This document shows positions 6,690-61,658 of a stretch of 64,000 nt of DNA, piece after piece. Origin of the DNA: Candidatus Heimdallarchaeum aukensis (GTDB taxonomy: Archaea > Asgardarchaeota > Heimdallarchaeia > Heimdallarchaeales > Heimdallarchaeaceae); the NCBI GenBank assembly GCA_021513695.1, contig CP084166.1:832001-896000 (forward strand), in the 5' to 3' direction. Under the pieces are notes generated by a model. The model was not told where the DNA came from, searched no databases, and saw only the letters and a list, made by a program, of their open reading frames with translations. The first letter of the stretch is position 1. Each line of letters starts with the position of its first letter. The position numbers were made by a program, and so were the translations under genes.

Positions 6690-6823
6690 AGTCTTTTCCG
6701 CTGTCTTTTAAAACTTTCTTTAATCTTTGTATATAACTAATAGAAGGAGAGAAAATAGAGTGAGTTTATTTCAATTCAATTAACCAAATAAAAATTAAAT
6801 TAAAAACTAAATGATAAAAGCAC

Positions 6824-25896: not shown

Positions 25897-26778
25897 TCAA
25901 ACAAAGGGGAATTCATCAATTTTAATTTTGCTAACGTGTTTAATAATATACTCACGCTGTTCTTTAGTAAATATTTTTTCAAATTTATTTCGCTTTTTGT
26001 TTTCTATTTTCTCATTTACTGATTTCTTCCAAGGTTCATTAGTTAAAACAATATTTTTTACCTTTTCTTTGTAATCTGTAACCATTTTTTCAGAGAAACT
26101 AATACCAAGAAAGTTACATATGTCTCTTAAAGTCTTTGATGGTTGTGTCGTTAATCTGTCATAGCTTGTGAAAATGTGATTTTCATGATTAATATATTTC
26201 TTGCTAAATAAGATTGCTTTTTTCCACTTATTAATACACTGGTCAATAGTATATCCTCCTTCCCATATTTCAGGAAATTTTGATGAAACATCGTATAGAG
26301 ATGAAACAACATCACAACCATCTCTTATTAAATGAATAAACCTTGAATTTTTTACTAATTTATCAATGTAGTCAACATAAAAAAGATGATCTGGAGTTTT
26401 TTCAACCCAAGCTAATTTGTGATTATCAAGTGTATATTCATCCAGTAGTTTGACAAAATATTTTGTGTATTGCTTTATTGTATATAAATTTCCTAAAGTA
26501 TCCCTATTATTGTTCAATTTTAAACTATCTTGAAATTCTTGTAATCTCTTCTTTGCTCGTGGGTGACCTAATGTCACATTTAGAAAGAAATTGTTTCCTA
26601 ATATGTTTCTCACGAACTTTGGGGAGATAACATAAGGAATTTTAGGTAGTAAGTAAATAAAGAAATGTGATTCAGGAAATGAAATAATATCTTCATGTGC
26701 TGCTAATAATGACTGTAAGAGGGTTGTACCTGACCTAGGGCAGCCAACAAGGAATATCCTTGATTTAATTTCATTCAT
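25897..26778 (-). CDS. PAPS-dependent sulfotransferase (paralog 1)
   Basis: 5'-PSB loop GCPRSGTTLL and 3'-PB motif IRDGCDVVSS. Confidence 0.75.
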   Translation of the reverse strand: MNEIKSRIFLVGCPRSGTTLLQSLLAAHEDIISFPESHFFIYLLPKIPYVISPKFVRNILGNNFFLNVTLGHPRAKKRLQEFQDSLKLNNNRDTLGNLYTIKQYTKYFVKLLDEYTLDNHKLAWVEKTPDHLFYVDYIDKLVKNSRFIHLIRDGCDVVSSLYDVSSKFPEIWEGGYTIDQCINKWKKAILFSKKYINHENHIFTSYDRLTTQPSKTLRDICNFLGISFSEKMVTDYKEKVKNIVLTNEPWKKSVNEKIENKKRNKFEKIFTKEQREYIIKHVSKIKIDEFPFV

Positions 26779-38964: not shown

Positions 38965-40923
38965 ATGAGATTCACTAGATTCATATACAAATTAAAAAAT
39001 TATGATATTGTATTTAGTACACTTTTTATCTTTGGAATAATTATCCAATGTCTATTTGTTTTATTTAACTGTAGTAAATTTTTTAGAGTGATTCTAGGTG
39101 TCATTATTTTTTATTTGCTTCCAGGTTATTTTTTATATTCACTTTTAGTACCAGAAAGAAAAGATGATAATGTTTTTTATTTTCTCCCTTTATTTTTTAT
39201 TATTTCATGTAGTTTTATTTCAATTATTGCAGTTTTCTATTCTACAACAAAAATAAAATTCAATATTGATTCATTTTTTGTAATTTATTTTGTTTTTATT
39301 TTGTTAATTATAAGTCTTGTATTTTTCCAATCTCTAAAAAATAATAAAAAAGTCCTTATTAGGTTCAAAGTTTCGCTAAAAAGTGAGAAAATATTAGATA
39401 CATTTTTTATTCTTGGAGTAATTTATTTTATTATATTCTTTTTATTCTTGACAATAAAAAATCCGTATTCTTTAGTTCCAGATGAGATAATGTTTGCGAA
39501 ATGGTCCTCTTATATGCTTAATAATCAAAAAATGCATCCACGTTTTACAGATTCTGCATCTGATATTATGATTATCTATCCCTATGGTTGGGTTTTTATT
39601 TTAGCAGTTTTAGAACTTTTGAGCGGAATAAAATCCATATACATTGTTATGTATGGTTCTATTTTCCTTAGTTTAATATTATTAATGTCGATCTTCGCAA
39701 TTTTTAAATCTAATCAAAATAAAGGCTTTTTTACTCTTATCGTTTTTACTACTTTAACTTTAGATGACTACATAAAACTACCAATAAGGCTAAGTTATAT
39801 GTTACCAGGAACTCTTGGTTTTATTTTTATATTGATTTTTTTTGCACACTGGAATTATGAATCAAAAGATGCTTTAAAACAAGTTTCTTACAGAAAATTA
39901 AGTTTCTTTTCTGTATTATATGGGTCTTTTTGGACAATTCATCATTTTACAAGTATTATTCTATTTCCATTAGTTGTCTTTTTAATATTTTACATTTTAA
40001 TTTTAAAAGAAAATGAAAGGCGCAGAGTTATTATGTATTTTTTTGGCCTTATGCTGCTAGTATTATTAGCTTCTCTTACATTTCTTTATAAATATATGCT
40101 TGTTTTAATAAAAGGAGGAAGTCTTACTATTGATATAATCGGAAATCCTGTATGGATTCCTATTAGTATTTTTGACTGGTTTGAAAAAAGTAGCTATTTA
40201 TTATATGGACTCCCATTTATAATTATCTTAGTCATCGGAACACTATTGGTATTTACAAATAAAAAATTTGATCAAATCTTACCTTTAATTTTTATATTAA
40301 CAATATTTACTTTCCGAATATTCACTTACTATATATATAGATCAAATACTTTATTTTATAGATTAGGAATATTCTTCAGTTTATCAATAGGTATCTTCAT
40401 CGCTAAAACTACAACATATCCAGAATTGATTTTAGATTTAAAAAAGTATAGCAAAAGAATACAGAAAATAGATCTTTCTTCAATTTTCATTATCGTTTTG
40501 TTATTATCTAATCTGTTAAATCCATTATTTTCTAAGAGTTTAGATGAAAATAGATACGATACATTTGCTTCTTTTATTTCAGAACACCCTTCTGTATATA
40601 AAGAATCAGATATAGAAATTGTTCTTTCAGTAGATATTGAAAATTGTGTGTTTATTGACTTTTACAATGTCACCCCCATTCAAGCTTTATTTGAAAATCT
40701 GTTGTTAGCTAAATGGGAAGGTACTAACTATTCTTATTATCGAATAGAAAAAGAGGTTACAATTAAAAGAATTCTTTTTTTTGTTGAATCAAACAAAACA
40801 AACTATATTTTCTTTTCTTCGGTAATGGATTTTGATCTTAAGCAAGAGCTTTTTATATCATTACAGATCTACGGATTTTCTATATACAAAATAATAGGGG
40901 AATCAATAATATTAATAAAATAA
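38965..40923 (+). CDS. large polytopic membrane protein (652 aa); candidate GT-C glycosyltransferase or Wzy-like polymerase
   Basis: Starts 3 bp after the beta-helix gene. More than 12 TM helices plus a C-terminal soluble region. No AglB motifs. Confidence 0.5.
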   Translation: MRFTRFIYKLKNYDIVFSTLFIFGIIIQCLFVLFNCSKFFRVILGVIIFYLLPGYFLYSLLVPERKDDNVFYFLPLFFIISCSFISIIAVFYSTTKIKFNIDSFFVIYFVFILLIISLVFFQSLKNNKKVLIRFKVSLKSEKILDTFFILGVIYFIIFFLFLTIKNPYSLVPDEIMFAKWSSYMLNNQKMHPRFTDSASDIMIIYPYGWVFILAVLELLSGIKSIYIVMYGSIFLSLILLMSIFAIFKSNQNKGFFTLIVFTTLTLDDYIKLPIRLSYMLPGTLGFIFILIFFAHWNYESKDALKQVSYRKLSFFSVLYGSFWTIHHFTSIILFPLVVFLIFYILILKENERRRVIMYFFGLMLLVLLASLTFLYKYMLVLIKGGSLTIDIIGNPVWIPISIFDWFEKSSYLLYGLPFIIILVIGTLLVFTNKKFDQILPLIFILTIFTFRIFTYYIYRSNTLFYRLGIFFSLSIGIFIAKTTTYPELILDLKKYSKRIQKIDLSSIFIIVLLLSNLLNPLFSKSLDENRYDTFASFISEHPSVYKESDIEIVLSVDIENCVFIDFYNVTPIQALFENLLLAKWEGTNYSYYRIEKEVTIKRILFFVESNKTNYIFFSSVMDFDLKQELFISLQIYGFSIYKIIGESIILIK

Positions 40924-42847: not shown

Positions 42848-43810
42848 TCATCTAAATTTGACACTATCTACATTAGGCATCGAATCTGCTGAATAAATAG
42901 AATCCAACTCAAACAGAGAAAGTATATCAATTGCCCGTTCTAGTTGCTCTTTTGTAATATTTTCCTTCCATTTATCGATAATACTTCCACCGGATATTAA
43001 TGCACTTTCCTTTCTTACTTCGGGAGAAGGTTTCTTTAGAACTCTATAAATAGATTGATCATAATTTTTTCCTAAAAATTGGAATAATTTATCTATTTCT
43101 TCTTCAGGTGAAACAGCATATTTTTCATAAAAAGTTACAAGTATTTCATCTTTTGAAAACTGTTTTAGTGGGACATAATTCTCAATACACCATAAAAAGA
43201 TATTCTTCTCAAAAGTAGTCTGAGCATGTAAAATATCTTTCTTAAAGGGATTCAAGAAATCTTCCATTAGCTCTTCCTGAGAAAGTAAAACATCCAGATG
43301 GTCTTCCCAATTTAATTTTATTCTAGAGTTAGCCACTGCTCCGGGATGTCTTAGAAGTAAAATAATTTTTATTTCAGGAAACTGGGTTTTGATCCATTTT
43401 AGCATTAAATTAGCTCGGATATCTTTAACAAGCCTTTTTTTGCACAGAAACTTTTTATTAAATCTGTCTACCCATTTGTTTCTTATTTTTCCTGAAAGAA
43501 TTTTTCTTGCTGGTTCTAAATACTTTTCATCATTGTTCTCAGGTCTAAGATATTGCCTATACTTGAAATCTTTACAGACATCAACAAAGTATGAGTGAAA
43601 TGGCTCAAAAATGTACCTATAACTGTTATCATAATTAATGATATTTGAAACCCATGTTGTACCACTTCGTCCTGTTCCAGCTAGAAAAATGGTATTCTCA
43701 TAATTGCTATCTAAATTAATATATAATCTACTATGAATCTTGATTTTGATTGAATCAAGTAATGTTCCTTCATCGATTTTTCTTTTTATTTTATTTACTA
43801 TATTACTCAT
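42848..43810 (-). CDS. PAPS-dependent sulfotransferase (paralog 2)
   Basis: 5'-PSB GTGRSGTTWV and 3'-PB LRHPGAVANS. The start is trimmed to ATG 43810 to remove the overlap with the upstream gene. The listed ORF extends to 43852. Confidence 0.7.
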   Translation of the reverse strand: MSNIVNKIKRKIDEGTLLDSIKIKIHSRLYINLDSNYENTIFLAGTGRSGTTWVSNIINYDNSYRYIFEPFHSYFVDVCKDFKYRQYLRPENNDEKYLEPARKILSGKIRNKWVDRFNKKFLCKKRLVKDIRANLMLKWIKTQFPEIKIILLLRHPGAVANSRIKLNWEDHLDVLLSQEELMEDFLNPFKKDILHAQTTFEKNIFLWCIENYVPLKQFSKDEILVTFYEKYAVSPEEEIDKLFQFLGKNYDQSIYRVLKKPSPEVRKESALISGGSIIDKWKENITKEQLERAIDILSLFELDSIYSADSMPNVDSVKFR

Positions 43811-43827
43811 ACAATCACTTTTTAGAA

Positions 43828-44751
43828 TTAGATAAAACCCCATTTTTTCCAATGCTCATTTAAAACTTTGATTACATTATCTGGACTGTGATATCTTAAT
43901 GCAATATCTTTTTTACCTTTTTTAGTTTCACTCTTTAGGATTTGCAGAATAGAATCTTTTAAATTATTAGGGTTTAAGAAACCAATTACCTCTTTCATCT
44001 CTTCATAATCGATATATTGCTCTGAATAGTAAGTTCCTACAGAAACGTCACAAAAAAGAGCTTCAATTGAAATCACATTATATGTCAAACCTGTGCTAGG
44101 GTTTGCATGATCAATAATCAAATCACAGAAATTTATAGTATCACATATTTTTTCTCTGGGTATTGGTTTGTTGATGAAGTGAATATTGAAAGTTTTTTCA
44201 TTATTTATTTCTTCAATTGCTTTACTAATTAGATCAGAACCTTTTATTTTTGGTGAATGAGCAAAATGACCTATAACATAATCAAATCCATTCTCATCCT
44301 TGAATTGCTCTTTTTTTTCTTTTACTTCCTCTTTCGAATAAAATTCGTCAGGATTTACACAGCGAGGAAGAAAAATAGAATTAGGACTATAATTTATTAA
44401 CTCTTTAAGTGAGACAAATGAAGGTTCTTGAGGTTTAACAGTTCCAAGTCTTAAATCAGAACCATGATAATGAAAGCAAGTATTTCTTGCTCTTACTAAT
44501 TGTGGATAAGTACCATTGACCACCTGAATATCAAATTTTCTCAACAACCAACCAAAAGCCATCCAAAACCCTGTTCTCAGATAATTTTTCCACAAAGGCC
44601 CTTGAACACTTCCTAATTTAAAATACTGTTCAGGAAGATTGGCATATTTATTGCTCTGAAGAAAATAAGTTACTTCGTGACCTTGTCTTTCTAGCTCTCT
44701 TCCAATAAGAAAATGTTGACTAGCATAGTCACCAATAATAGCAATTCTCAT
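43828..44751 (-). CDS. GT-B-like protein of an uncharacterised subfamily (HYHGSDLR motif); paralog of 50457-51401
   Basis: N-terminal Rossmann-like MRIAIIGDYASQHFLIGRELERQGHEV and C-terminal S.E..F...GT-like region. Shares the HYHGSD(L/I)R block with 50457-51401. Confidence 0.5.
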   Translation of the reverse strand: MRIAIIGDYASQHFLIGRELERQGHEVTYFLQSNKYANLPEQYFKLGSVQGPLWKNYLRTGFWMAFGWLLRKFDIQVVNGTYPQLVRARNTCFHYHGSDLRLGTVKPQEPSFVSLKELINYSPNSIFLPRCVNPDEFYSKEEVKEKKEQFKDENGFDYVIGHFAHSPKIKGSDLISKAIEEINNEKTFNIHFINKPIPREKICDTINFCDLIIDHANPSTGLTYNVISIEALFCDVSVGTYYSEQYIDYEEMKEVIGFLNPNNLKDSILQILKSETKKGKKDIALRYHSPDNVIKVLNEHWKKWGFI

Positions 44752-49156: not shown

Positions 49157-50155
49157 TCACATAAATACATTATAATCAAGAGACCTATTAAAAATATAGG
49201 TAAACAATTTCTCCTTTTTCACTGGTAAAAATCTTGATTTTCGAGGTTGTGAGAGAATTGGATAGTCATAATCATATAATATTTTTCTGAAATATTTAGT
49301 TATATAATATTTCTCAAGAGTATTGATTTCTTTCTTCCAAACTTCTAGATTATCTGCAGAGATACCTTGAAACTGTTTGTTGAGACTTGAATTTCCCAAC
49401 CACAACTTCCCTTTGATAGTTGGTTTAAGAAGAATAGGATCATATTTTACTCCAATGAAATCAGCTAATTCTTTCATAGATTTTTCAGGATTAGTCAAAA
49501 TATCTTCATATTTAATAACATGATAAGAATCAGGAAACAGCTCTAAATTACGATACATGTGGTAGAAAGAATTTTTCAGAGAAAGTAAAGGAACACTAAT
49601 TTTGGGATATTTTCCTTTATTCACAGCCTTTTGTAAATAACGTCTGTAACTAACCAGATTAGAATATGGATTGCGTAACACACGTATAAATTTGGCATCT
49701 GGAAAGAGTTTTTTCAATAAAGGTACAAATTCATCATGTTCTACAGATTTTTCTACAAAACGTTTCGTTTCTACGTAGTCTTCTTCATAAAAGGAAGCAT
49801 AAATTGCTTGGAAGTAAAGTTCAACAAGATCTTTAAAATCATCAACTTCTTTCTCAATTTTTTGATTGAATATAGAAAGGTTGAACATTCCTATTCTACT
49901 TGAAGAATCATGACTAAAATCTTGCTTTACAGTATTAATTTTTTTAATATGTTTCTTAAAATTGTCTTTTATTTCCTTAAATGAAAGATCTTGAGGGTAA
50001 GTCTTTCTCCCTCGATAATCAACCCATCGTCCAGATAATTGGAAAATGTGTGTTTCAAAAGGAATACTAAAAAGTTCAGGATGATTATCTAGTAATCTTA
50101 ATAGTAAAGTTGTACCACTCTTATGTGGACCTACAATGAAAATGGGATTATTCAT
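49157..50155 (-). CDS. PAPS-dependent sulfotransferase (paralog 3)
   Basis: 5'-PSB GPHKSGTTLL and 3'-PB LRNPYSNLVS. Confidence 0.75.
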   Translation of the reverse strand: MNNPIFIVGPHKSGTTLLLRLLDNHPELFSIPFETHIFQLSGRWVDYRGRKTYPQDLSFKEIKDNFKKHIKKINTVKQDFSHDSSSRIGMFNLSIFNQKIEKEVDDFKDLVELYFQAIYASFYEEDYVETKRFVEKSVEHDEFVPLLKKLFPDAKFIRVLRNPYSNLVSYRRYLQKAVNKGKYPKISVPLLSLKNSFYHMYRNLELFPDSYHVIKYEDILTNPEKSMKELADFIGVKYDPILLKPTIKGKLWLGNSSLNKQFQGISADNLEVWKKEINTLEKYYITKYFRKILYDYDYPILSQPRKSRFLPVKKEKLFTYIFNRSLDYNVFM

Positions 50156-51536: not shown

Positions 51537-53279
51537 TTAAGCAATTTTTTTTCTTGTTAGTATGACTAAAGTTACTAGTCCAATAATAGTAATAAAAAAT
51601 GGGAGAGAGATTGTTTTTGTAGAAGGGTGCTCACTTGGATCCAATGGATTATAACCTTTTTGAACTTCCTCACCATCCATCCAACCATCTGAATCAGTAT
51701 CTGAATTTAAAGGGTCAGTAAGGTAAATATTAACTTCTTCTCCGTCACTTAGTCCATCTGAATCAGTGTCTGAATTTAAAGGGTCAGTAAGGTAAATATT
51801 AACTTCTTCTCTGTCACTTAGTCCATCTGAATCAGTGTCATTGTTATTTGTTAGAGTTCCTATATATTGTTCATAAGCATTTGATAAACCATCATAGTCT
51901 GAATCAACATCATACAAGTTCTTAGTCCTTATGAACTTAGAAGATCCACTCATTCCTTCCCAATAAACATGTAGAGAACTTGAAGGAAAAGAAAAACAGT
52001 AGATATATTCAGTAGTATCACCTATAATAAGCTCCAAATGACCATCAGAATCAATATCACCAATAGAGGGAGAAGAATAAGCAAAAGGACCAAGAGTATA
52101 ACTCCACAATAAAGATCCATTATTACTCAAACAATATAAATTACTATCATGAGACCCAAAAATAATCTCAAAATATCCGTCTGCGTTAATATCTGCAACA
52201 GAAGGAGAAGAACGAACATTATCTCCTGTTTTGTAAGTCCATTTTATAGAACCATCATTGTTGAAACAGTACACATAATCAGAATCACTCCCCACAATAA
52301 TCTCAAAATAACCATCAGAATCTATATCTACGACAGCAGGAGAATCCCACACTCTATCTTCAGTATTGTATCGCCATTTTAAAGTACCATTATAATTTAA
52401 ACAATAGATGTAACCGTCATGGCTACCAATAATGATTTCTGATCTCCCGTCTGAATTAATATCTGCGATAGCTGGAGAAGAATAAATATCATTAGCAGTA
52501 CCGTATCGCCATTTTAAAGTACCATCATTGTTGAAACAATAAATGTAATTATCATAACTTCCGACAACAATTTCCAAGTCCCCATCAGCATCAATATCAC
52601 CGACTGAAGGTGAAGAAAGAACATTAAGACCAGTACCGTATCGCCATTTTAAAGTACCATCATTGTTTAAACAGTAGATATAATAGTCATCGCTACCAAT
52701 AATGATTTCTAAATTTCCGTCTCCGTCAATATCAAAAACAACTGGAGCAGTACGAACTTTTTCTCCTGCTTTATAAGTCCATTTTACAGTACCATCATTA
52801 TTCAAGCAGTATATGTAATTGTCATCACTTCCTACAACGATCTCCAAATTTCCGTCTTTATCAATATCTACAACTACAGGAGAAGAACGAGTGGATCCAC
52901 CTGTTTTGTAAGTCCATTTTACAGAACCATCATTGTTGAAACAATAGATGTAACTATCCAAACTCCCTTCAATGATCTCTACATTTCCATCGGCATCAAT
53001 ATCAACTATAGCAGGAGAAGAATGGATATCTCCCCCAGTTCTATAACTCCACAATAACTCAGCTTCAATACTCTTAAATGTTGAACCTTTGGGTGTTTCA
53101 AGATTAGTACTTGCATAAGAAAGAGAGTCAGTAGATAAAGAAGTTTCACCATTATAGTTTAAGGAAGTATTAAGTCTTCGATAATCAGTTTCATAATTTG
53201 ATGTTAACAAAGCAGGTGTTAACAAAATAATTAATAAAGCAACCGTGATAGTTAAACTTCTTATTCTTGAAATTTGCAT
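51537..53279 (-). CDS. surface-anchored beta-propeller protein: signal peptide, ~8 FG-GAP-like blades, three TSP3-like Ca-binding repeats, C-terminal TM
   Basis: Signal MQISRIRSLTITVALLIILLTPALL, with the start set at ATG 53279. Eight repeats of VDID.DGN.EII.GS.D.YIYC.NNDG..KW.Y.TG (DxDxDG Ca-binding loops). SDTDSDGLSDxEEV repeats. C-terminal FFITIIGLVTLVILTRKK anchor. Confidence 0.65.
   Translation of the reverse strand: MQISRIRSLTITVALLIILLTPALLTSNYETDYRRLNTSLNYNGETSLSTDSLSYASTNLETPKGSTFKSIEAELLWSYRTGGDIHSSPAIVDIDADGNVEIIEGSLDSYIYCFNNDGSVKWTYKTGGSTRSSPVVVDIDKDGNLEIVVGSDDNYIYCLNNDGTVKWTYKAGEKVRTAPVVFDIDGDGNLEIIIGSDDYYIYCLNNDGTLKWRYGTGLNVLSSPSVGDIDADGDLEIVVGSYDNYIYCFNNDGTLKWRYGTANDIYSSPAIADINSDGRSEIIIGSHDGYIYCLNYNGTLKWRYNTEDRVWDSPAVVDIDSDGYFEIIVGSDSDYVYCFNNDGSIKWTYKTGDNVRSSPSVADINADGYFEIIFGSHDSNLYCLSNNGSLLWSYTLGPFAYSSPSIGDIDSDGHLELIIGDTTEYIYCFSFPSSSLHVYWEGMSGSSKFIRTKNLYDVDSDYDGLSNAYEQYIGTLTNNNDTDSDGLSDREEVNIYLTDPLNSDTDSDGLSDGEEVNIYLTDPLNSDTDSDGWMDGEEVQKGYNPLDPSEHPSTKTISLPFFITIIGLVTLVILTRKKIA
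51686..51840. repeat. 69-bp tandem repeat (2.2 copies, ~97% identical) inside the propeller gene, encoding 23-aa DTDSDGLSD(R/G)EEVNIYLTDPLNS units
   Basis: catctgaatcagt(a/g)tctgaatttaaagggtcagtaaggtaaatattaacttcttctc(c/t)gtcacttagtc repeats at 51686, 51755 and 51824. Confidence 0.8.
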
Positions 53280-54126
53280 TATTTTTTCTCTAGTTTGAAA
53301 TATTTTTTGATTTTTAGCTTGCTTTTTTTTCATTATTAATTCATTCCTTTTTATTTTATGATTTTTCTGTTGCGATTTACTTGAATATTTAGAAACACTT
53401 CTTCTAAATCGTAATTTAGTAGCTGATTTTGCTCTCTGTCTAAATATCATCCATGAATTATCTTTTTGTTATCTTTTCCTACTCTATCAGTGGAATGGTA
53501 CAAACGATGAAATTTAAAGGTTTCAAAGTACTAACATCATCTAGGAATTATGAGACACTATTGAAGTATTTAACTCTTCGCTCAACGAGCAGCTATAATA
53601 TTCTGATTACTAGTGAATAGGTTGATTTAAGCATCTAGTTAAGGCACTTTTAGGAATGGTTTTTTTACATCTTTTCTCATTTCCAGTACCTCTTTTTGAA
53701 CATAGTTCGTTTCTTTTTTAGAGTAGATCACATAGTTATTACCAGAATCATATATAAACTAGACATTTTTTGAAGGAAGAAAATAACTGCAAAAAAGAAA
53801 CTCAAAGTTACATTCAGCCATTTTTTTAAATAAAATCACATTTCCCCAATATTCTAAAATCATTTTTACAACATTTTCAGGACTATGATACTTCATACAA
53901 TCACTTTAAAAAGATTTGAACTTGAATTTTTACAAAACTTAAAAAAATAGATTCATAACCGAATTTCAAGAGCTTCTGCAAAGATGCACTCTCATTAGCT
54001 ACATTTATTGTAAAGATGAAAGTAACTTAAAAACATTAACTATCATTTCTTTTTATTCCTACTATATGAATAAAACAATCAATTGTTAATAAGTAATATT
54101 TTTATTTTCTATCCTAATTTTAAATT

Positions 54127-56004
54127 GTGAGATATAAAGATCCATTTCTTATTCCAATAATGCAAATTAGTAAAAAAAAGAAATTAAGGAATGAGGAAAA
54201 GATACAATTAATAGAAAATATTTTTCAGAAAATAATAAAATTTACAGGAGAAAATAGAGAAATACGAAAAAAAATAGAAGAAATAAGAAAAATCATTGCT
54301 AAGAGCGGAATAGAAATTAATAAAGAAATCAACAATTTGAACAATTTAAACGATTTAAATAATTTAAATAATTTAAACAAGAAACTCAACTTTAGTTTAG
54401 ATGAAAGAAAATCAAATATTTTTATCACTCCTTATCATCTTTCACTAATCACAAGTATTTGCTCTACAGACCCTAAAAGCAATGGAGAGTTTAACACACC
54501 GTTCTATATAGCAGAATACTTGGCAGAAAGAGCAATAAAATACTATTTAACAGAAAACAAAGCAGAAGAAAAATCAGATAACAAAACAGAACAAAGTAAA
54601 CTACTTAGATTAAAGTTTGCAGATATAGCTAGTGGAACAGGAAACTTGATACTCGCTCTCTTATATAAATTAAAAGAAAGAATAAAAAAGGAAGAAGAGA
54701 TAGAAAATGAAGAATTAATAGAGTTTATCAGTAACAACATTTATTGTTACGATAATAACCAATTAGCACTAAAAATAAATGAGCTTAGACTATTCTTATT
54801 CATCAAATTTACTATGGAAGAAGCAGAATTAAGAAAAGTAAATTTTAAAACAATAAAAACAAATACTTTGGATAAAGAAAAAATAAAGAAAAACAATTAT
54901 TTTGATATTATTTTAATAAATCCACCTTTCAAAACTTATGGATTAAGAAATGGGCAAAAGTATAGCCAAGAATTAAAGAACTATTTAAGAAAAGAATATA
55001 AGACCGCAGAGTATAAACTTCCACTTTATCCACTATTCATGGAAAGAGCAATAGAATTGTTAAGAAAAAGAGGAGTTCTTGGAGTAGTTAGCCCAGATAG
55101 TTTTTTGTTAGGTAAATATTACTCAAAAATAAGAAGTTATATTCTCAACAATACTACAATTAAAGAAATAACACTATTAGACTATGAACCCTTTGAAAAA
55201 GTAACACTAGGAAGAACAGCGCTAAGTTTCTATATGAAAAAAAATGAAAAAGAAAAAAAACAGAATCAAATAATCACGAAAAAAATAAGCAATTACCAAA
55301 CTTTCACTCACAAAAATGAGATTGATAAGAAGTACTTGAACAATGAAAAAAAATTCCTAAAAAATGATCTAAATAGATTTTTTCTGTTCTTTAATGAGAA
55401 AGAAGAAAAGATAGTAGAGAAATGGATTGAAAAAGCAGATTGTAAACTAGAAGATCTGGTAACAATCCACACAGGAATAAGAAGTAAAATAGGCCAAAAA
55501 AAGATCATTAGCTTAAAAAAACATGATGAAAATTGGAAAAAAGGAATATTATCAGGAAAACAAATAAAACCTTTTTATTTAGAATACAAAGGACATTGGA
55601 TAAATGTTGATCCAACTATATTATGGGCAGGAGGTTATAATGAGGAGATAATAGAAAATCCTAAATTGTTAATAAGACAAACAGGAGATAAAATAATTGC
55701 ATGTGTAGATACTAATGGCTATTACCACTTGAATAATATTCACTCACTTTCTCCAAAAGACGAAACAGTTGACCTTTACTCCTTATCAGTTATCTTAAAT
55801 TCAAAAGAATTTAATCAAGTCTATAGAATTTTAAGTATGGAAAAAAAAAGAACATTTGCTCAAATAGACATAGATTTTTTCCTCAAAATGCCGATAATAT
55901 ACTTTTCAAAAGAAAAAAAAACACTTTATGAATTTTATCTAAAAGAAAGCACCAAACAGAAAAAAAGAATAGAAATAGAATCATATTTATTAGATAATAT
56001 TTAA
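54127..56004 (+). CDS. N6-adenine DNA methyltransferase, gamma class (Eco57I/TaqI-like), solitary
   Basis: Motif X-like EFNTPFYIAEYLAERA. Motif I FADIASGTGNLILALL. Motif IV IILINPPF. Long C-terminal target-recognition region. Contains an N-rich low-complexity insert (NLNNLNDLNNLNNLN). Confidence 0.75.
   Translation: MRYKDPFLIPIMQISKKKKLRNEEKIQLIENIFQKIIKFTGENREIRKKIEEIRKIIAKSGIEINKEINNLNNLNDLNNLNNLNKKLNFSLDERKSNIFITPYHLSLITSICSTDPKSNGEFNTPFYIAEYLAERAIKYYLTENKAEEKSDNKTEQSKLLRLKFADIASGTGNLILALLYKLKERIKKEEEIENEELIEFISNNIYCYDNNQLALKINELRLFLFIKFTMEEAELRKVNFKTIKTNTLDKEKIKKNNYFDIILINPPFKTYGLRNGQKYSQELKNYLRKEYKTAEYKLPLYPLFMERAIELLRKRGVLGVVSPDSFLLGKYYSKIRSYILNNTTIKEITLLDYEPFEKVTLGRTALSFYMKKNEKEKKQNQIITKKISNYQTFTHKNEIDKKYLNNEKKFLKNDLNRFFLFFNEKEEKIVEKWIEKADCKLEDLVTIHTGIRSKIGQKKIISLKKHDENWKKGILSGKQIKPFYLEYKGHWINVDPTILWAGGYNEEIIENPKLLIRQTGDKIIACVDTNGYYHLNNIHSLSPKDETVDLYSLSVILNSKEFNQVYRILSMEKKRTFAQIDIDFFLKMPIIYFSKEKKTLYEFYLKESTKQKKRIEIESYLLDNI
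54334..54381. repeat. 9-bp microsatellite (aatttaaay) x5 inside the methyltransferase gene
   Basis: aatttgaacaatttaaacgatttaaataatttaaataatttaaacaag. In frame, it encodes (N/D)LN repeats. Confidence 0.7.
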
Positions 56005-56327
56005 TAAATAATTGAATTAAATTAAATTATAATAATATTTTAACTTTGAATTTATTAAAACTAAAGCCTATTACTCTTTATAATATCAAGGTTTGGTATA
56101 AAAAACTGAACTTAGTACATTAATATTCTTTTCTTACAGTATTTCAAGAATCAAAAATAATTATTATCACTTTAAAAGAAGTGATATTCAAGTAAGTATA
56201 ATTACCAATAAATATTTCCTAAAAATAAATAAAGAAAAAAAGTAAGAGGAGAAAGTGAAGAAAGTGTTTAAGAACAAAGTCTAGAACTAAATAAGCATGA
56301 ATAGTAAAAAATGATTAAAAGTTAACA

Positions 56328-57395
56328 TTATATTTTTTCGTTGCTAAAATCTTTATTTTTTTTCAAGTATTCTTTAGTTTCGATATTCTTTAACCACCAC
56401 TCATTTTCTAAATACCACTCTATTGTTAGTTGAATACCTTCTTCAAAATCGATTGTTGGAAACCAGTTCAGTTCATTTTTTATCTTTGAAATATCGATCG
56501 CATATCTTCTATCATGCCCTAATCTGTCTTTAACGTGTTTAATTAAAGTTTCATTAATTTTAGTGTCTTTTGTTTTCTCATATAAATAAGAAATTATTTT
56601 TTTTACAACATATATATTCTTTCTCTCATTTTGAGCTCCAATATTATATATCTCACCTATCCTTCCTTTTTCAAAAACCAAGTCGATTGCTCTACAATGA
56701 TCAGTGACAAATATCCAATCTCTTACTTGATTTCCATCTCCATATATAGGTAGATTCTTATGGTTCAATGCATTTTGTATCATTAATGGAATTAATTTTT
56801 CGGGGAATTGGAAGGGTCCGTAGTTATTAGAACATCTAGTAATATTTACTGGCATCCTATATGTATCAAAGTACGCTTTTACTATCAAATCTGCAGATGC
56901 CTTACTTGCAGAATAAGGACTATGCGGATCAAGAGGAGTTTTTTCTGTAAAAGCACCTGTAGGACCTAGAGAACCATATACTTCATCTGTTGATATTTGC
57001 AAGAATTTCTTATTTGCAATCCATTCTTCATTGTGATACCAATTTTTTTTACATATTTCAAGAAGTGAATATGTGCCTAAAATATTTGTTTGAAGAAATA
57101 TTTGTGGATTAGCAATAGATCTATCAACATGGGATTCTGCAGCGAAATTAATAACTCCATCTATATCTTTATAGGTTTCAAATATTTTCCTTAATAACTC
57201 AAAATTATTAATATCTCCTTTAATAAAAATAAACCTTGACTTTTGATCTTCAGTTAAATTTTTCCAATTTTCAACGTTACCAGCATAAGTAAGTTTGTCG
57301 ATACCAATTATTTCTCTATCAGGATATCTATCAAGATAATAATAAAGAAAATTACTTCCAATAAATCCTGCAACGCCAGTTACTAATATTTTCAT
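56328..57395 (-). CDS. rfbB: dTDP-glucose 4,6-dehydratase
   Basis: MKILVTGVAGFIGSNF, the YSASKASAD catalytic motif, and length 355 aa. Confidence 0.85.
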   Translation of the reverse strand: MKILVTGVAGFIGSNFLYYYLDRYPDREIIGIDKLTYAGNVENWKNLTEDQKSRFIFIKGDINNFELLRKIFETYKDIDGVINFAAESHVDRSIANPQIFLQTNILGTYSLLEICKKNWYHNEEWIANKKFLQISTDEVYGSLGPTGAFTEKTPLDPHSPYSASKASADLIVKAYFDTYRMPVNITRCSNNYGPFQFPEKLIPLMIQNALNHKNLPIYGDGNQVRDWIFVTDHCRAIDLVFEKGRIGEIYNIGAQNERKNIYVVKKIISYLYEKTKDTKINETLIKHVKDRLGHDRRYAIDISKIKNELNWFPTIDFEEGIQLTIEWYLENEWWLKNIETKEYLKKNKDFSNEKI

Positions 57396-57418
57396 TCCTA
57401 ATACTTCCTCTATGTTTT

Positions 57419-58267
57419 TTATTTGATCAATTCAATTTCCTCTAAAAATTTGATAGTAGCATCTTGCCAAGAAGGTAGTTTGTATCCAATTACTTCTTCT
57501 AAACCAAATGGGTCTAAAACTGATAAGAAAGGTCTTTTAGCAGGTGTATTAAACTCATGAGAGAGAGCAGGAAGAAGCTCTCCTTCCCACTCTATTTTAT
57601 TTAATATATATTCAGCCCATTGATATCGTGAACAATATCCAGAATTTGTCATATGATACAACCCATAATTTTCTGTTTTTATCAAGTTGTAAGTTGCATC
57701 TACAATATCGTTTGTATAACTTGGTGATGATATCTGATCAATAACGATTCTTATTTTTTTTCTATTTCTACTCCATTTTATAGTTTTAGTTATAAAGTTT
57801 TCATTACCTTTCCCAAAGACCCAGCTTAACCTTACTAAAAAAAACCTATTAGCGATATTTTGTACATTCTTTTCACCCAGCACTTTACTTTCTCCGTATT
57901 TTGAAATGGGAGATGGTTTATCATAAATTGTATAGGGATAACCTTTACATCCATCAAAAACATAGTCAGTAGAGTAATGGACAAGTATAGCATCTAATTC
58001 ATTCGCAAGTAAAGCTAAGTTTTTTGGACCAAGCCCATTGATTCGATAAGCAGATTGCCAGTCATTTTCAGCATTGTCTACTGCATTATAGGCAGCACAA
58101 TTAATAATTATATCAATATCTTTATTTGAAACATATTCCCGTAATTTTTTAAAATTTGTAATATCTAATTCGACATCAGTAGCAAAAAAACTAATTCCCT
58201 TTTTTAAAAAAAAGGTTTGGAATGATTGACCTAATTGTCCTTTTGATCCTGTAATTAATATTCCCAT
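57419..58267 (-). CDS. rfbD: dTDP-4-dehydrorhamnose reductase
   Basis: MGILITGSKGQLGQSF and the YGESK motif. 282 aa. Confidence 0.8.
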   Translation of the reverse strand: MGILITGSKGQLGQSFQTFFLKKGISFFATDVELDITNFKKLREYVSNKDIDIIINCAAYNAVDNAENDWQSAYRINGLGPKNLALLANELDAILVHYSTDYVFDGCKGYPYTIYDKPSPISKYGESKVLGEKNVQNIANRFFLVRLSWVFGKGNENFITKTIKWSRNRKKIRIVIDQISSPSYTNDIVDATYNLIKTENYGLYHMTNSGYCSRYQWAEYILNKIEWEGELLPALSHEFNTPAKRPFLSVLDPFGLEEVIGYKLPSWQDATIKFLEEIELIK

Positions 58268-58414
58268 ATAATCACCATTAAATTTTCATAAATATATCTT
58301 TTATGTGATTCAAATTTGAAATACTATAAAGCAACTCCTACGAACTAATTTCTTAATTAATGCATATATTATTCTCTTTCTTACATACCTTTTTAGCTTA
58401 ACTTCTTAATTAAA

Positions 58415-58996
58415 TCACTTTTCGTATTTAAAAGGTAATTCAATATCTTTCAAAAATGGTAATTTAGAATCTTTCTCTGAAATAATTAATCTTGAATCTT
58501 CAATCTTGTCTAAAGGCCATTTAATGTTTATATCTGGATCATTCCACCTGATTCCTCTATCATATGCTGAATAATAATAATCAGTTGTTTTGTAAACAAA
58601 TTCAGTCTCTTCAAGGGCAAGAAATCCATGAGCAAAACCTTTAGGAATATAAAACATGCGTTTGTTTTTTTCAGAAAGTTCTACACCATAATACTGACCA
58701 AAACTGGGAGAACCTACTCTTATATCAACAGCAACATCAAACACTCTTCCTTTGATTACACGTACTAATTTTCCTTGAGAGTGCTTAGATTGAAAATGTA
58801 ATCCTCGTAGAACTCCTTTTGAAGATTTAGAGTGGTTATCTTGTACAAAATCCACGTTTAATCCAATTTTGTTAAATTCCTTTTTATTATAAGTTTCCAT
58901 AAAAAATCCTCTTTCATCGTAAAAAATTACTGGTTCAATAATAAATGCCCCTTCCAATATTGTTTCAATTTTATTAAATTTTAACATATAAATCAC
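58415..58996 (-). CDS. rfbC: dTDP-4-dehydrorhamnose 3,5-epimerase
   Basis: RmlC cupin with the ...DERGFF.E...LRGLHFQ... signature. 193 aa. Confidence 0.85.
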   Translation of the reverse strand: MIYMLKFNKIETILEGAFIIEPVIFYDERGFFMETYNKKEFNKIGLNVDFVQDNHSKSSKGVLRGLHFQSKHSQGKLVRVIKGRVFDVAVDIRVGSPSFGQYYGVELSEKNKRMFYIPKGFAHGFLALEETEFVYKTTDYYYSAYDRGIRWNDPDINIKWPLDKIEDSRLIISEKDSKLPFLKDIELPFKYEK

Positions 58997-59143
58997 CGTA
59001 AATCTTTACTATAATTTTTGGATTAGTTTATCTCATAATCATGTTTATTTTTTGTCACTGTTGTACTATTGAAATGAAATTAATTTTATTCTATTAAATC
59101 TATTGAATTACATTATACTTTGTAATATGTAGATGAAAAATTT

Positions 59144-60007
59144 TTAAATAAGACTTAATAAATACCTTCCATAATCAGAATTTGAGTGCTCTTTTGCTAA
59201 ATTTTTAAGTTGATCGGTGTCAATATATCCAAGTCTGAATGCAATTTCTTCTAAACAAGCAATATAATATCCTTGCCTTTTTTGAATAGCTGCAACAAAA
59301 TTACTAGCTTCTATTAAACCATCAAATGTTCCAGTATCAAACCAAGCTAATCCACGTCCTAATAATTTGACTTTCAACTTTCCTCTTTTTAAATATTCAA
59401 TATTAAGATCAGTAATTTCTAGCTCTCCTCTTGGAGATGGTTTAAGATTTTCTGCATATTTAATTACATTATTATCGTAGAAATATAAACCAGGTATAGC
59501 ATAATTTGATTTTGGAAAAGCTGGTTTCTCTTCTATGGAGATAACATCCATAGTTTCTTCATTGAATTCTACAACTCCAAAAGCGGTGGGATTATTTACA
59601 TAGTAACCAAAGATTAAGGCTCCTTCCTTTAAAGTAGTTGCTTTTCTTAAAATTGAAGAAAAACCTTGACCATAAAAGATATTATCACCTAAAATTAGTG
59701 CAACATTATCAGAACCAATAAATTCTTTACCAACAATGAAAGCATCAGCTAACCCTCTTGGTTTTTCTTGAATTTTATATGAAAACTGAACACCAAGTTG
59801 AGAACCATCTTTTAATAAATTCTTGTAGTCTATAATATCTCTTGCTGTTGAGATAATTAAAATATCTTTTATCCCAGCAAGAAGAAGTGAAGAAAGTGAG
59901 TAATAAATCATAGGTTTATCATAAACTGGTAGAATTTGTTTTGAAATTGCTTTTGTTATGGGATATAATCTTGTTCCTGTTCCTCCAGCCAATACAATTC
60001 CTTTCAT
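59144..60007 (-). CDS. rfbA: glucose-1-phosphate thymidylyltransferase
   Basis: [36 protein letters not shown] is the canonical RmlA N-terminus. 287 aa. Confidence 0.85.
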
Positions 60008-60773: not shown

Positions 60774-61658
60774 TTATTCATCAAATGAATACCAATTATG
60801 TAAATCAATCTCAAATAATTTTTCGAATTTAATAATATCATCTAAAAAGTATTCATTAATTAGTTTTTCTTTTAATTCAACATTTATTTTTTTCTTGTCA
60901 AGTGGTTTTTTATTAAAGTTCATCAGTAATTTAGATAGTTTGTATCTAAAAGTTTCATCCGGAATAATACATCTGATTATTTTTTTAGCAAAATTATCTT
61001 TGTATATAAAATCTCGTATAAATTTGTTCTTTGATTCATAAGCTTCATTCTTTAAAATGTTTAAATTAAGGTCGTATTTTGGAATATCAAGAAAAGAAAA
61101 TAATTTATCGATCATCTTTTTAATGTTTAAACATAAATCGTATTCAAAATTAAAAATTATAAAATTCTTCTTATGGAAAAAATCTAGATATTTTTGAATG
61201 TTTAGATAATACATTCCTTTTTCAAGATAATTATATCTTTGATAATAGGGATGATTTGCATTTAATTCTTTTATCTCCCTTTGGATAGCTTCTTCAAAAG
61301 TTAATTTTTCATAACCTCGTCGAACATTCATTAAATAGTGAGAATATGCTCGTTCCACAGGATCTCTTACAATTAAGATAAATTTTACACCATTTCCAAA
61401 AGCATTATAGATTCTTTTTGGTACTTGCTTATAGTACAAATATTCAGGTGCTACTTCACCTAAATAGGAACTTTCATCACATTTAAAGAACGTTGAGAAA
61501 TACCAATCTAAACCTTTCTTGAACTTTCTGTCTAAATCAAAGAATCTAGTTTCTTTGATATCAGGAAGACATAACTTTGGATGCTGTTTTAGAATAGAAT
61601 GAATTGTTGTTGTTCCTGCTTTTTGAGCACCTATACAGAAGAAAGATACCTTTGGCAT
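60774..61658 (-). CDS. PAPS-dependent sulfotransferase (paralog 4)
   Basis: 5'-PSB GAQKAGTTTI and 3'-PB VRDPVERAYS. Confidence 0.75.
   Translation of the reverse strand: MPKVSFFCIGAQKAGTTTIHSILKQHPKLCLPDIKETRFFDLDRKFKKGLDWYFSTFFKCDESSYLGEVAPEYLYYKQVPKRIYNAFGNGVKFILIVRDPVERAYSHYLMNVRRGYEKLTFEEAIQREIKELNANHPYYQRYNYLEKGMYYLNIQKYLDFFHKKNFIIFNFEYDLCLNIKKMIDKLFSFLDIPKYDLNLNILKNEAYESKNKFIRDFIYKDNFAKKIIRCIIPDETFRYKLSKLLMNFNKKPLDKKKINVELKEKLINEYFLDDIIKFEKLFEIDLHNWYSFDE

What the first reader, a model, noticed from the sequence alone, without database searches (positions are those of the whole stretch)
53451..56327. Solitary gamma-class N6-adenine DNA methyltransferase, with an Asn-rich microsatellite insert, embedded in the glycan island
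The 625-aa protein has motifs X, I (SGTGNL) and IV (NPPF) in gamma order and a long C-terminal target-recognition region. No REase, HsdS or HsdR partner is adjacent. It is flanked by unusually long non-coding stretches (675 bp upstream, 323 bp downstream). Near the N-terminus a 9-bp repeat (aatttaaay x5) encodes NLNNLNDLNNLNNLN. Such a repeat could change length by slipped-strand mispairing. It is either an orphan or regulatory methyltransferase, or the survivor of a decayed R-M system; the upstream 675 bp could be restriction endonuclease remnants.
Basis: partly seen in the sequence, partly recalled or inferred. Interest (0 to 1): 0.5.

Follow-up and report, generated by a model that had tools for sequence, protein, structure and literature searches.

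The report
Heimdallarchaeal solitary DNA adenine methyltransferase
This is an intact DNA adenine methyltransferase with no restriction partner, inherited across Heimdall-group Asgard archaea alongside their sugar-sulfation genes, so it is a conserved "orphan" methylase rather than the wreck of a defence system.

Summary
Window 54127-56004 (+) encodes an intact 625-aa gamma-class N6-adenine methyltransferase (Pfam Eco57I plus TaqI_C; motifs X, I, IV in gamma order). It is identical to K9W45_03625 of Ca. Heimdallarchaeum aukensis.

No nuclease, HsdS or HsdR lies nearby; every sizeable ORF from 41.4 to 62.8 kb is a glycan, sulfation or surface-protein gene.

It belongs to a discrete, monophyletic family in about 24 Heimdallarchaeota species genomes. 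dN/dS is 0.16-0.24. The specificity domain is the most conserved part. The family sits beside sulfation genes, often as MTase>CysQ>PAPS-synthase. Its best structural match is CamA, the orphan m6A methyltransferase of C. difficile.

The "decayed R-M" reading is not supported. The proximal 234 bp upstream is a conserved intergenic block that in three orthologous loci abuts a divergent sulfotransferase. The distal 442 bp matches nothing detectable.

The 9-bp repeat is real and varies from 3 to 5 units between orthologues. It is always in frame, in a poorly conserved N-terminal linker, so it cannot switch the gene on or off.

Verdict: a new member of a known kind, a lineage-persistent orphan DNA methyltransferase. 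Target motif and role are unknown.

The parts
54127..56004 (+). Coding sequence of the 625-aa solitary gamma-class N6-adenine DNA methyltransferase (GTG start; stop codon included)
   Evidence: ORF. Pfam Eco57I plus TaqI_C. 100% identical to H. aukensis K9W45_03625. GTG start conserved in 4 orthologues. dN/dS 0.16-0.24.
54475..54519 (+). Motif X (KSNGEFNTPFYIAEY, residues 117-131)
   Evidence: K117, G120, T124 and P125 are invariant in 13 homologues.
54619..54648 (+). Motif I, the SAM-binding loop ADIASGTGNL (residues 165-174)
   Evidence: D166, G170, G172, N173 and L174 are invariant. The small-residue xGxG form is typical of the gamma class (PMC8187626).
54919..54930 (+). Motif IV, catalytic NPPF (residues 265-268)
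   Evidence: N265, P266 and P267 are invariant; position 268 is F or Y.
54733..55179 (+). Pfam Eco57I methylase core (residues 203-351)
   Evidence: PF07669, E 4.8e-21, 76 bits against a cutoff of 25.3.
55546..55896 (+). TaqI_C-type target recognition domain (residues 474-590); the most conserved part of the family
   Evidence: PF12950, E 4.1e-14. Residues 441-595 are 67-70% identical to paralogues, against 49-51% for the catalytic core; omega 0.077. Residues 450-504 have low pLDDT in the model.
54331..54380 (+). 9-bp tandem repeat (AATTTAAAY-like, 5.6 copies) encoding NLNNLNDLNNLNNLN in the N-terminal linker
   Evidence: TRF. Unit number is 5 (window), 5 (L004), 4 (L013) and 3 (L003), always in frame. 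It lies in a variable-length, poorly conserved stretch of the family alignment with model pLDDT 51-64.
53893..54126 (.). Conserved 234-bp upstream intergenic block. Inferred to be the shared divergent promoter region, including an invariant T-rich TATA-like element about 20-30 bp before the GTG.
   Evidence: About 82% identical to L003 and L004. 91% mean column identity across 4 loci, and similarity stops at the divergent gene's ATG. The promoter role is inference only.
53451..53892 (.). Distal 442 bp of the upstream gap: lineage-specific non-coding DNA with no detectable ancestry
   Evidence: No blastn or tblastx match to any related locus or elsewhere in the window. No Pfam hit in six frames. 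No homologue of its best frame.
53759..53896 (-). 45-aa ORF whose ATG sits exactly where the divergent sulfotransferase gene starts in L003, L004 and L013; probably not a real gene
   Evidence: Alignment A2. No homologues among 5.8 billion proteins.
56005..56327 (.). 323-bp, 19% GC convergent intergenic region between the methyltransferase and rmlB
   Evidence: No similarity to related loci. GC content.
42848..43852 (-). Sulfotransferase 66-70% identical to the gene that directly neighbours the methyltransferase in L003, L004 and L013. Here it lies about 10 kb away.
   Evidence: tblastn. Pfam Sulfotransfer_1 and Sulfotransfer_3.
56328..60007 (-). rmlB-rmlD-rmlC-rmlA (dTDP-rhamnose pathway), convergent with the methyltransferase. 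The same four genes lie directly upstream of the orthologue in L009.
   Evidence: Pfam. L009 gene order.

Best explanation
The gene encodes a functional, stand-alone gamma-class N6-adenine DNA methyltransferase. It is probably monomeric, with a CamA/M.TaqI-like two-domain architecture. The N-terminal Rossmann domain binds SAM (motif I) and receives a flipped-out adenine in the NPPF pocket (motif IV). The C-terminal TaqI_C domain reads the DNA sequence.

It is not half of a restriction-modification system. It is a 'persistent' orphan: one family, found so far only in Heimdallarchaeota, that has been inherited together with the sulfated-glycan gene neighbourhood. Because its specificity domain is the most conserved part, it most likely writes the same short m6A motif throughout the clade. 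That mark would serve a housekeeping or regulatory (epigenetic) purpose rather than self-protection from a nuclease.

The Asn/Leu 9-bp repeat is an evolutionarily unstable but in-frame spacer in a poorly conserved N-terminal helical linker. It has no switching role.

Shown: family, motifs, intactness, purifying selection, absence of a nuclease partner, clade-wide distribution, conserved synteny.

Inferred: DNA as substrate, monomeric action, a single conserved target motif, a non-defence role.
For: Family and fold:
- Pfam Eco57I plus TaqI_C.
- PDB sequence hits to M.TaqI, M.BseCI and BrxX.
- AF2 model with pTM 0.78. Its best Foldseek hits over about 555-600 columns are DNA-bound CamA (E 1e-21, TM 0.62-0.70), then M.BseCI, BrxX and M.TaqI.
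- CamA is a gamma-group, monomeric orphan enzyme (PMC8187626).

Solitary:
- Every ORF >=120 aa from 41.4 to 62.8 kb is assigned to glycan, sulfation or surface functions.
- No nuclease family appears in the gene-order maps of 27 Heimdall loci.
- The conserved neighbours are a divergent TFB paralogue, CysQ, PAPS synthase, arylsulfotransferase and TauE.

Persistent family:
- About 24 Heimdallarchaeota species genomes carry it.
- In an exhaustive profile search, 7 family representatives score 704-847 bits, followed by a gap to 429 bits.
- It is monophyletic in a neighbour-joining tree.
- Pairwise divergence correlates with that of the adjacent PAPS synthase and CysQ (Spearman 0.68-0.76).
- The H. 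endolithica orthologue is 84% identical at the amino-acid level and about 87% at the nucleotide level. That is close to the genome-wide 90% AAI and 88% ANI (PMC8813620).

Functional:
- dN/dS is 0.16-0.24, and 0.077 for the TRD.
- All catalytic motifs are invariant.

Not mobile:
- No flanking terminal or direct repeats.
- GC of 25.7% lies within the island's range.
- No clade member in the viral contigs.
Against: - No methylome or biochemical data exist. The DNA substrate and target motif are inferred from homology only.
- Type II REases are notoriously hard to detect by sequence (PMC10609329), and only 64 kb of the genome is visible. An unlinked or unrecognisable partner cannot be excluded.
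- The number of Heimdallarchaeota genomes that lack the gene was not measured, so 'persistent' rests on presence data from incomplete MAGs.
- The adjacent PAPS synthases are 74-95% identical. The genomes compared are therefore not extremely distant, and part of the synteny may be simple shared ancestry.
- The closest non-Heimdall relatives include Type IIG-like fusion enzymes in defence contexts, so a defence ancestry is likely.
- The model has low confidence at residues 450-504, which lie inside the TRD.
Confidence: 0.7

Rival explanations
1. The methyltransferase is functionally coupled to the sulfation/glycan locus. Either it acts as an epigenetic regulator of the island's promoters, or, more radically, it acts on a non-DNA adenine-containing substrate linked to PAPS metabolism.
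For: - In at least 12 Heimdall loci the gene is followed, co-directionally and with 12-56 bp gaps, by CysQ and PAPS synthase, sometimes with an arylsulfotransferase in between.
- A divergent TFB paralogue lies upstream in 9 loci.
- In the Heimdallarchaeum genus the immediate divergent neighbour is a sulfotransferase.
- Divergence of the methyltransferase tracks that of PAPS synthase and CysQ.
Against: - Synteny alone does not show co-function. Short solitary relatives in Sporomusaceae and Obscuribacterales sit in unrelated housekeeping contexts.
- The TaqI_C domain and the CamA-like fold point to duplex DNA as substrate.
- In this window the gene is a monocistronic unit, convergent with rmlB, and no CysQ or PAPS synthase lies within 64 kb.
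Confidence: 0.13
2. It is the modification half of a defence system whose nuclease is unlinked, or too divergent to recognise.
For: - Nearest non-Heimdall relatives P0025 and P0026 (about 1010 aa) match PADLOC Type IIG REase-MTase models at 421-474 bits. P0026 sits next to an HKD-nuclease/Snf2 helicase and a PDC-S19 gene.
- REases are hard to detect by sequence (PMC10609329).
- An uncharacterised soluble 486-505-aa protein recurs a few genes away in 7 Heimdall loci.
Against: - The Heimdall proteins lack the roughly 500-aa N-terminal part of the Type IIG relatives.
- The window protein scores only 72 bits against generic MTase_II models.
- A conserved TRD is the opposite of the diversifying pattern expected in arms-race R-M genes.
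- The recurrent 486-aa protein is absent from the window.
- No unassigned ORF lies beside the gene here.
Confidence: 0.1
3. It is a recent survivor of a decayed R-M system, with endonuclease debris in the 676-bp upstream gap.
For: - The upstream gap is long.
- 442 bp of it is unalignable to the orthologous loci.
- One minus-strand frame has an 85-codon run broken by a single stop.
Against: - No Pfam hit in six frames.
- No homologue of the 85-codon frame in 5.8 billion proteins.
- No tblastx hit to any related locus.
- In three orthologous loci the ancestral neighbour is a sulfotransferase.
- The family has been solitary throughout its Heimdall history.
Confidence: 0.04
4. It is a phase-variable methyltransferase (phasevarion) switched by slipped-strand mispairing of the 9-bp repeat.
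For: The repeat copy number differs between orthologues, from 3 to 5 units.
Against: - The unit length is a multiple of 3, and all four observed alleles keep the frame.
- The repeat lies in a non-conserved linker outside the catalytic and recognition domains.
- The variation seen is between species or strains that are about 13% diverged, not within a population.
Confidence: 0.03

Closest known systems
CamA (Clostridioides difficile orphan N6-adenine DNA methyltransferase; PDB 7LT5, 7RFK and others)
   Same: - Best structural match to the model (Foldseek E 1e-21, TM 0.62-0.70, about 555-600 aligned columns).
- Same gamma motif order, small-residue xGxG motif I, NPP(Y/F) motif IV and a large C-terminal TRD.
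- Solitary, and conserved across a lineage rather than patchy (PMC8187626).
   Different: - Only 17-20% sequence identity, and no CamA hit in the PDB sequence search.
- It has an extra N-terminal helical region of about 90 aa containing the repeat.
- It is an archaeal (Heimdallarchaeota) family with a different genomic context.
- Target motif and phenotype are unknown, whereas CamA methylates CAAAAA and affects sporulation.
M.TaqI / M.BseCI (Type II gamma-class m6A methyltransferases with a TaqI_C TRD)
   Same: - Best PDB sequence hits (M.TaqI 2.5e-8, M.BseCI 1.5e-6).
- Same Pfam TaqI_C specificity domain.
- Same fold.
   Different: Those enzymes are paired with cognate endonucleases. This one has none in any of the 27 related loci, and its TRD is conserved clade-wide.
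Type IIG / MmeI-like and DISARM/BREX-type adenine methyltransferases (PADLOC REase_MTase_IIG, PglX, DrmMI)
   Same: - The nearest non-Heimdall sequence relatives (P0025, P0026; 38-42% identity over residues ~259-625) are of this kind.
- The NPPF-to-TRD module is shared.
   Different: - The window protein lacks their roughly 500-aa N-terminal nuclease/helical part.
- Its scores are far below the family cutoffs: BREX-1 PglX 60 bits against 500, and MAD2 47 bits against 720.
- No BREX, DISARM or HKD-Snf2 partner genes are nearby.
'Persistent' orphan DNA methyltransferases of archaea (e.g. halobacterial CTAG m4C HG1, Dam-like HG3; PMC10609329)
   Same: Same evolutionary pattern: an orphan Type II-like methyltransferase conserved within a taxon and vertically transmitted.
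   Different: - I found no description of this family in the held literature.
- It is restricted to Heimdallarchaeota.
- It is linked to sulfation genes.
- Its relatives and CamA-like fold suggest a non-palindromic site, unlike most persistent archaeal methyltransferases listed in that survey. This last point is inference.

Membership tests
Gamma-class N6-adenine (amino) DNA methyltransferases, Eco57I/TaqI type | Linear order motif X - I - IV ... followed by a C-terminal TRD | tested here: met
   Motif X at residues 117-131, motif I at 165-174, motif IV at 265-268, TaqI_C at 474-590.
Gamma-class N6-adenine (amino) DNA methyltransferases, Eco57I/TaqI type | Catalytic (N/D)PP(Y/F) motif and an xGxG SAM loop, both intact | tested here: met
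   NPPF and ASGTG are present. N265, P266, P267, G170 and G172 are invariant in 13 homologues.
Gamma-class N6-adenine (amino) DNA methyltransferases, Eco57I/TaqI type | Significant match to the curated family models | tested here: met
   PF07669 scores 76 bits (cutoff 25.3). PF12950 scores 53.3 bits (cutoff 26.5).
Gamma-class N6-adenine (amino) DNA methyltransferases, Eco57I/TaqI type | Two-domain fold superposable on solved DNA-bound enzymes | tested here: met
   Foldseek hits to CamA, M.BseCI and M.TaqI, with probability 1.00 and TM up to 0.70. The model pLDDT is only 72.9, and residues 450-504 are of low confidence.
Gamma-class N6-adenine (amino) DNA methyltransferases, Eco57I/TaqI type | Transfers methyl to adenine N6 in a specific DNA sequence | not testable with these tools
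   This needs an enzyme assay or a methylome. The published H. aukensis Nanopore reads came from MDA- and PCR-amplified DNA (PMC8813620).
Restriction-modification system (Type II, IIS or IIG) | A cognate endonuclease that is adjacent or fused | tested here: not met
   No nuclease domain in the protein. All neighbouring ORFs are assigned to other functions. No nuclease in 27 related loci. The upstream gap is negative in six-frame Pfam. Limits: sequence-based REase detection is weak, and only 64 kb of the genome was seen.
Lineage-persistent orphan methyltransferase (Dam, CcrM or CamA type of evolutionary pattern) | Conserved across a taxon with vertical-like inheritance | tested here: met
   About 24 Heimdallarchaeota species. 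Monophyletic. Divergence tracks the neighbouring genes. The aukensis-endolithica orthologue lies near genome-average identity. The number of genomes lacking the gene was not measured.
Lineage-persistent orphan methyltransferase (Dam, CcrM or CamA type of evolutionary pattern) | Purifying selection and conserved specificity determinants | tested here: met
   dN/dS 0.16-0.24. The TRD is the most conserved region (67-70% identity against 49-51% for the core; omega 0.077).
Lineage-persistent orphan methyltransferase (Dam, CcrM or CamA type of evolutionary pattern) | A cellular (regulatory, replication or repair) role for the methyl mark | not testable with these tools
   No genetic or methylome data are available.
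Phase-variable methyltransferase (phasevarion) | A simple-sequence repeat whose length changes shift the reading frame or the promoter spacing | tested here: not met
   The unit is 9 bp. Alleles with 3, 4 and 5 units are all in frame, and the repeat is inside the CDS linker.
BREX PglX / DISARM DrmMI / MADS MAD2 | Full-length match above the curated cutoff, plus system partner genes | tested here: not met
   Scores of 60, 54 and 47 bits against cutoffs of 500, 900 and 720, covering the methylase core only. No partner genes nearby.

The most novel reading that the evidence does not exclude
The Heimdallarchaeota methyltransferase is an integral, co-transcribed component of the PAPS-synthesis and sulfated-glycan gene cluster (TFB paralogue < | MTase > CysQ > PAPS synthase). 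It would control expression of the cell-surface sulfation programme through m6A marks. That would be an epigenetic switch for surface glycans in the archaeal lineage closest to eukaryotes. More radically, it might modify an adenine nucleotide of the sulfation pathway rather than DNA.
Probability: 0.12. Interest if true: 0.75.

Novelty: new member of a known kind. Interest (0 to 1): 0.4.

Why it matters
Nothing is known experimentally about DNA methylation in Heimdallarchaeia, the Asgard group closest to eukaryotes.

This gene is a concrete, clade-wide candidate for a conserved m6A mark. Its conserved specificity domain predicts a single motif shared by many species. One heterologous-expression and SMRT-sequencing experiment, or native long-read sequencing of existing enrichments, could test that prediction.

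The recurrent placement next to PAPS synthase, CysQ, sulfotransferases and a TFB paralogue also flags a conserved sulfated-glycan locus in these archaea, and a possible regulatory link to it.

For annotation, the result shows that this gene should not be counted as a restriction-modification or defence locus.

Tried and rejected
1. Exact-sequence look-up of the window protein's contig found nothing on record. Identity came from the homology search instead.
2. Rfam and tRNA scans of the window found nothing.
3. Search for a second copy, or for remnants of neighbours seen elsewhere, in the window and its flanks. Targets were Methyltransf_10, the 467-aa AB_125 protein and the 138-aa Exo_endo_phos fragment. 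None were found.
4. The 467-aa protein directly upstream in AB_125 was tested as a REase candidate and rejected. It has a signal peptide and a C-terminal anchor, and no defence or nuclease hits.
5. The divergent 312-aa Zn-ribbon neighbour was tested as a nuclease candidate and rejected. It aligns end to end with TFIIB/TFB.
6. REase remnants in 53451-54126 were tested by blastn, tblastx, six-frame Pfam and a search of the large protein database. All were negative.
7. Mobile-element signatures around the gene were sought. Only low-complexity chance repeats appeared. GC content is not anomalous. Viral contigs hold only distant relatives.
8. A literature search found no description of this gene, or of Heimdall sulfation-linked methyltransferases, in the held library.
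9. The bacterial sigma-70 promoter scanner was not used because the organism is an archaeon.
Full report
**What is there.** Window 54127-56004 (+) is a 625-codon ORF with a GTG start. Its product is identical to the protein K9W45_03625 of Candidatus Heimdallarchaeum aukensis, a 3.08-Mb closed Asgard genome. The window is 28% GC.
- Pfam gives Eco57I methylase (residues 203-351, E 4.8e-21) and the TaqI-like C-terminal specificity domain (474-590, E 4.1e-14).
- NCBIfam gives only sub-threshold core matches to PglX, MAD2 and Alw26I-type adenine methyltransferases.
- The best solved-structure sequence hits are M.TaqI and M.BseCI.
Their key residues are invariant in an alignment of 13 homologues.
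- The GTG start is supported by conservation of the first 11 codons in four orthologues. The internal ATG is not conserved.

**The repeat.** Tandem Repeats Finder reports 54331-54380, period 9, 5.6 copies, 87% matches.
- In the three closest relatives the same tract has 5 units (L004), 4 (L013, H. endolithica) and 3 (L003), with Asn and Lys codons alternating. The tract is therefore real and evolutionarily unstable.
- Every allele is in frame.
- The tract lies in a variable-length, poorly conserved stretch between an N-terminal helical region and the invariant TPYHLS / motif X segment. The structure model is of low confidence there.
- It changes a spacer length and cannot act as an on/off switch.

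**Neighbourhood.** From 41.4 to 62.8 kb every ORF of at least 120 aa has another assignment:
- GT4 and GT2 glycosyltransferases
- three sulfotransferases
- UDP-GlcNAc 2-epimerase and UDP-glucose dehydrogenase
- a Wzx-type flippase
- an FG-GAP/TSP3 surface protein
- rmlB-D-C-A

The last 1.2 kb of the window is non-coding. No nuclease, HsdS or HsdR is present. The flanking gaps of 676 and 323 bp are the 4th and 9th longest of 46 in the window, so long gaps are common in this island.

**The upstream gap.** Nucleotide similarity to the orthologous loci L003, L004 and L013 begins at window 53893 and fades about 66 nt before the stop codon.
- The 234 bp before the GTG are 91% conserved per column across the four loci.
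- That conservation ends exactly at an ATG. In the other three loci this ATG starts a divergently transcribed sulfotransferase gene.
- In the window the same ATG opens only a 45-codon ORF.
- The nearest homologue of that sulfotransferase (66-70% identity) lies 10 kb away at 42848-43852.
- The remaining 442 bp (53451-53892) match nothing. Tests were blastn and tblastx against 67 related loci and the window, six-frame Pfam, and a search of 5.8 billion proteins with the longest near-open frame.

The 'REase remnant' idea is therefore not supported. The simplest reading is an island rearrangement that separated the methyltransferase from its ancestral sulfotransferase neighbour. No terminal or direct repeats flank the gene.

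**Family and distribution.**
- Word-indexed and exhaustive profile searches show a discrete family. Seven 50%-identity representatives score 704-847 bits, and the next protein scores 429 bits.
- A scan of one genome per GTDB species finds the family in about 24 genomes labelled Heimdallarchaeota or Promethearchaeati, at 40-53% identity. There is also an 84% orthologue and a 47% paralogue 22 kb apart in H. endolithica.
- A neighbour-joining tree (no support values) recovers the Heimdall sequences as one clade.
- Outside the clade, relatives at 28-42% identity are of two kinds. Some are roughly 1000-aa Type IIG-like fusions in defence contexts, next to HKD-nuclease/Snf2 helicase and PDC-S19 genes. 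Others are short solitary forms, each conserved in its own lineage and housekeeping context: Sporomusaceae (ksgA-GT2-yabG-MT) and Obscuribacterales (BacA...RsmI-MT).
- Viral contigs contain only such distant relatives.

**Selection.**
- Against the three close orthologues, dN/dS is 0.16-0.22.
- Across paralogues the TaqI_C/TRD segment (residues 441-595) is 67-70% identical. The catalytic core is 49-51% and the first 88 residues are about 25%. TRD omega is 0.077.
- A conserved specificity domain is the opposite of what arms-race R-M genes show. It predicts a shared recognition sequence.
- The aukensis-endolithica orthologue pair (84% aa, about 87% nt) is close to the genomes' 90% AAI and 88% ANI (PMC8813620). 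This is consistent with vertical descent.

**Conserved synteny.** I mapped gene order in 27 Heimdall loci, using my own ORF calls, BLAST clustering, and Pfam on representatives plus precomputed Pfam labels.
- The methyltransferase is followed on the same strand, after 12-56 bp, by CysQ (Inositol_P) and a bifunctional ATP-sulfurylase/APS-kinase in seven loci.
- In four more loci the same two genes follow after one or two arylsulfotransferases.
- In three more loci they lie within a few genes.
- A divergent 312-aa TFB paralogue lies upstream in nine loci.
- Three loci have a Methyltransf_10-type amino-methyltransferase abutting the 3' end.
- In L009 the rmlA-C-D-B genes lie directly upstream, echoing the window's adjacency to rmlBDCA.
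- Pairwise identities of the methyltransferase correlate with those of the adjacent PAPS synthase and CysQ (Spearman 0.68 and 0.76). The block has therefore been inherited together.
- Caveat: the PAPS synthases are 74-95% identical, so the genomes are not extremely distant, and shared ancestry explains part of the synteny.
- None of the recurrent neighbours is a nuclease. The 467-aa protein upstream in AB_125 is a secreted, anchored protein.

**Structure.** An AlphaFold2 model built from the 13-sequence alignment has pLDDT 72.9 and pTM 0.78, with residues 450-504 poorly defined.
- Foldseek against the PDB ranks DNA-bound CamA first (E 1e-21, TM 0.62-0.70 over about 555-600 columns).
- M.BseCI, BrxX and M.TaqI follow.
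- CamA is the gamma-group, monomeric, orphan m6A methyltransferase conserved in all C. difficile genomes (PMC8187626).

**Interpretation.** The evidence fits a lineage-persistent orphan DNA adenine methyltransferase, the pattern described for other archaeal taxa (PMC10609329). It probably derives from a Type IIG-like ancestor that lost its nuclease part. It has been retained in Heimdallarchaeota beside their sulfation/glycan genes.
- Not shown here: that DNA is the substrate, what the motif is, and what the mark does.
- Whether the link to sulfation genes is functional is the most interesting open point. I give it about 0.12.
- I found no paper in the held library describing this gene or this association.

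**Verdict.** It is a new member of a known kind, of moderate interest.

Noticed in passing
L014 9851-10666, L005 11894-12694, L029 ~6285-7106 (not in window): A 266-273-aa Methyltransf_10 / RlmF-HemK-like amino-methyltransferase directly abuts the 3' end of the Heimdall methyltransferase in three loci (overlap of 4 bp up to a gap of 45 bp). It could be a second-strand DNA methyltransferase or an unrelated RNA or protein methyltransferase. The window holds no trace of it.
   Followed up: partly
L006 5139-6077 (-), plus eight other Heimdall loci: A divergent 312-aa TFB/TFIIB paralogue is conserved immediately upstream of the methyltransferase-sulfation block. It has a Zn ribbon and a weak full-length match to NF001658. 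It may be a dedicated transcription factor for the locus. It is absent from the window.
   Followed up: partly
L016, L017, L019, L022, L006, L026, L028, L009, L031, L032, L059: A conserved Heimdallarchaeota sulfation cluster: CysQ, bifunctional ATP-sulfurylase/APS-kinase, TauE-family permeases, roughly 1050-aa arylsulfotransferases with Ig/PKD domains, and an uncharacterised soluble 486-505-aa protein.
   Followed up: partly
window 25897-26778, 42848-43852, 49157-50155, 60774-61658: At least four sulfotransferase genes lie in the H. aukensis island, but no CysQ or PAPS synthase lies within the 64-kb window. PAPS must be supplied from elsewhere in the genome.
   Followed up: no
window 53759-53896 (-): A 45-codon ORF begins at the exact ATG that starts a sulfotransferase gene in the orthologous loci. 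Similarity to those loci ends at that codon, which marks a rearrangement breakpoint. The ORF has no homologues.
   Followed up: yes
L013 6814-7767 (-) (H. endolithica CP084167.1): The sulfotransferase next to the H. endolithica orthologue is split into 138-aa and 165-aa ORFs. It is intact (at least 271 aa) in L004, so this copy is a likely pseudogene.
   Followed up: partly
L013 and L014 (H. endolithica CP084167.1, ~984.5 kb and ~1008.7 kb): H. endolithica carries two paralogues of the methyltransferase (84% and 47% identical to the window protein), 22 kb apart in its glycan island. Only one copy is present in the 64-kb window of H. aukensis.
   Followed up: partly
L001 2717-3667 and 8722-9195; L003 2441-3128: Transposase HTH fragments, an rve_3 fragment and a TnpB (Cas12f1-like_TNB) fragment lie near the methyltransferase copies in relatives. 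This indicates IS activity in these islands.
   Followed up: no
L040, L043, L044, L046-L048; L051-L056, L060, L062, L063, L066: Short solitary relatives of the methyltransferase are conserved in fixed housekeeping contexts in Sporomusaceae (ksgA - GT2 - yabG - MT - CAP) and in Obscuribacterales (BacA ... RsmI < MT > caspase/TonB protein). These may be further lineage-persistent orphan methyltransferases.
   Followed up: partly
window 51537-53450 (-): A 637-aa ORF encodes an FG-GAP/beta-propeller protein with bacterial TSP3 repeats and a C-terminal anchor. Its annotated start is probably over-extended: a basic 40-60-residue leader precedes the likely signal/TM segment. If so, the true upstream gap is longer than 676 bp.
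   Followed up: no
window 38965-40923 (+): A 652-aa protein with about 14 predicted transmembrane segments and no Pfam hit, inside the glycan island. It is a candidate polymerase or oligosaccharyltransferase-like enzyme.
   Followed up: no
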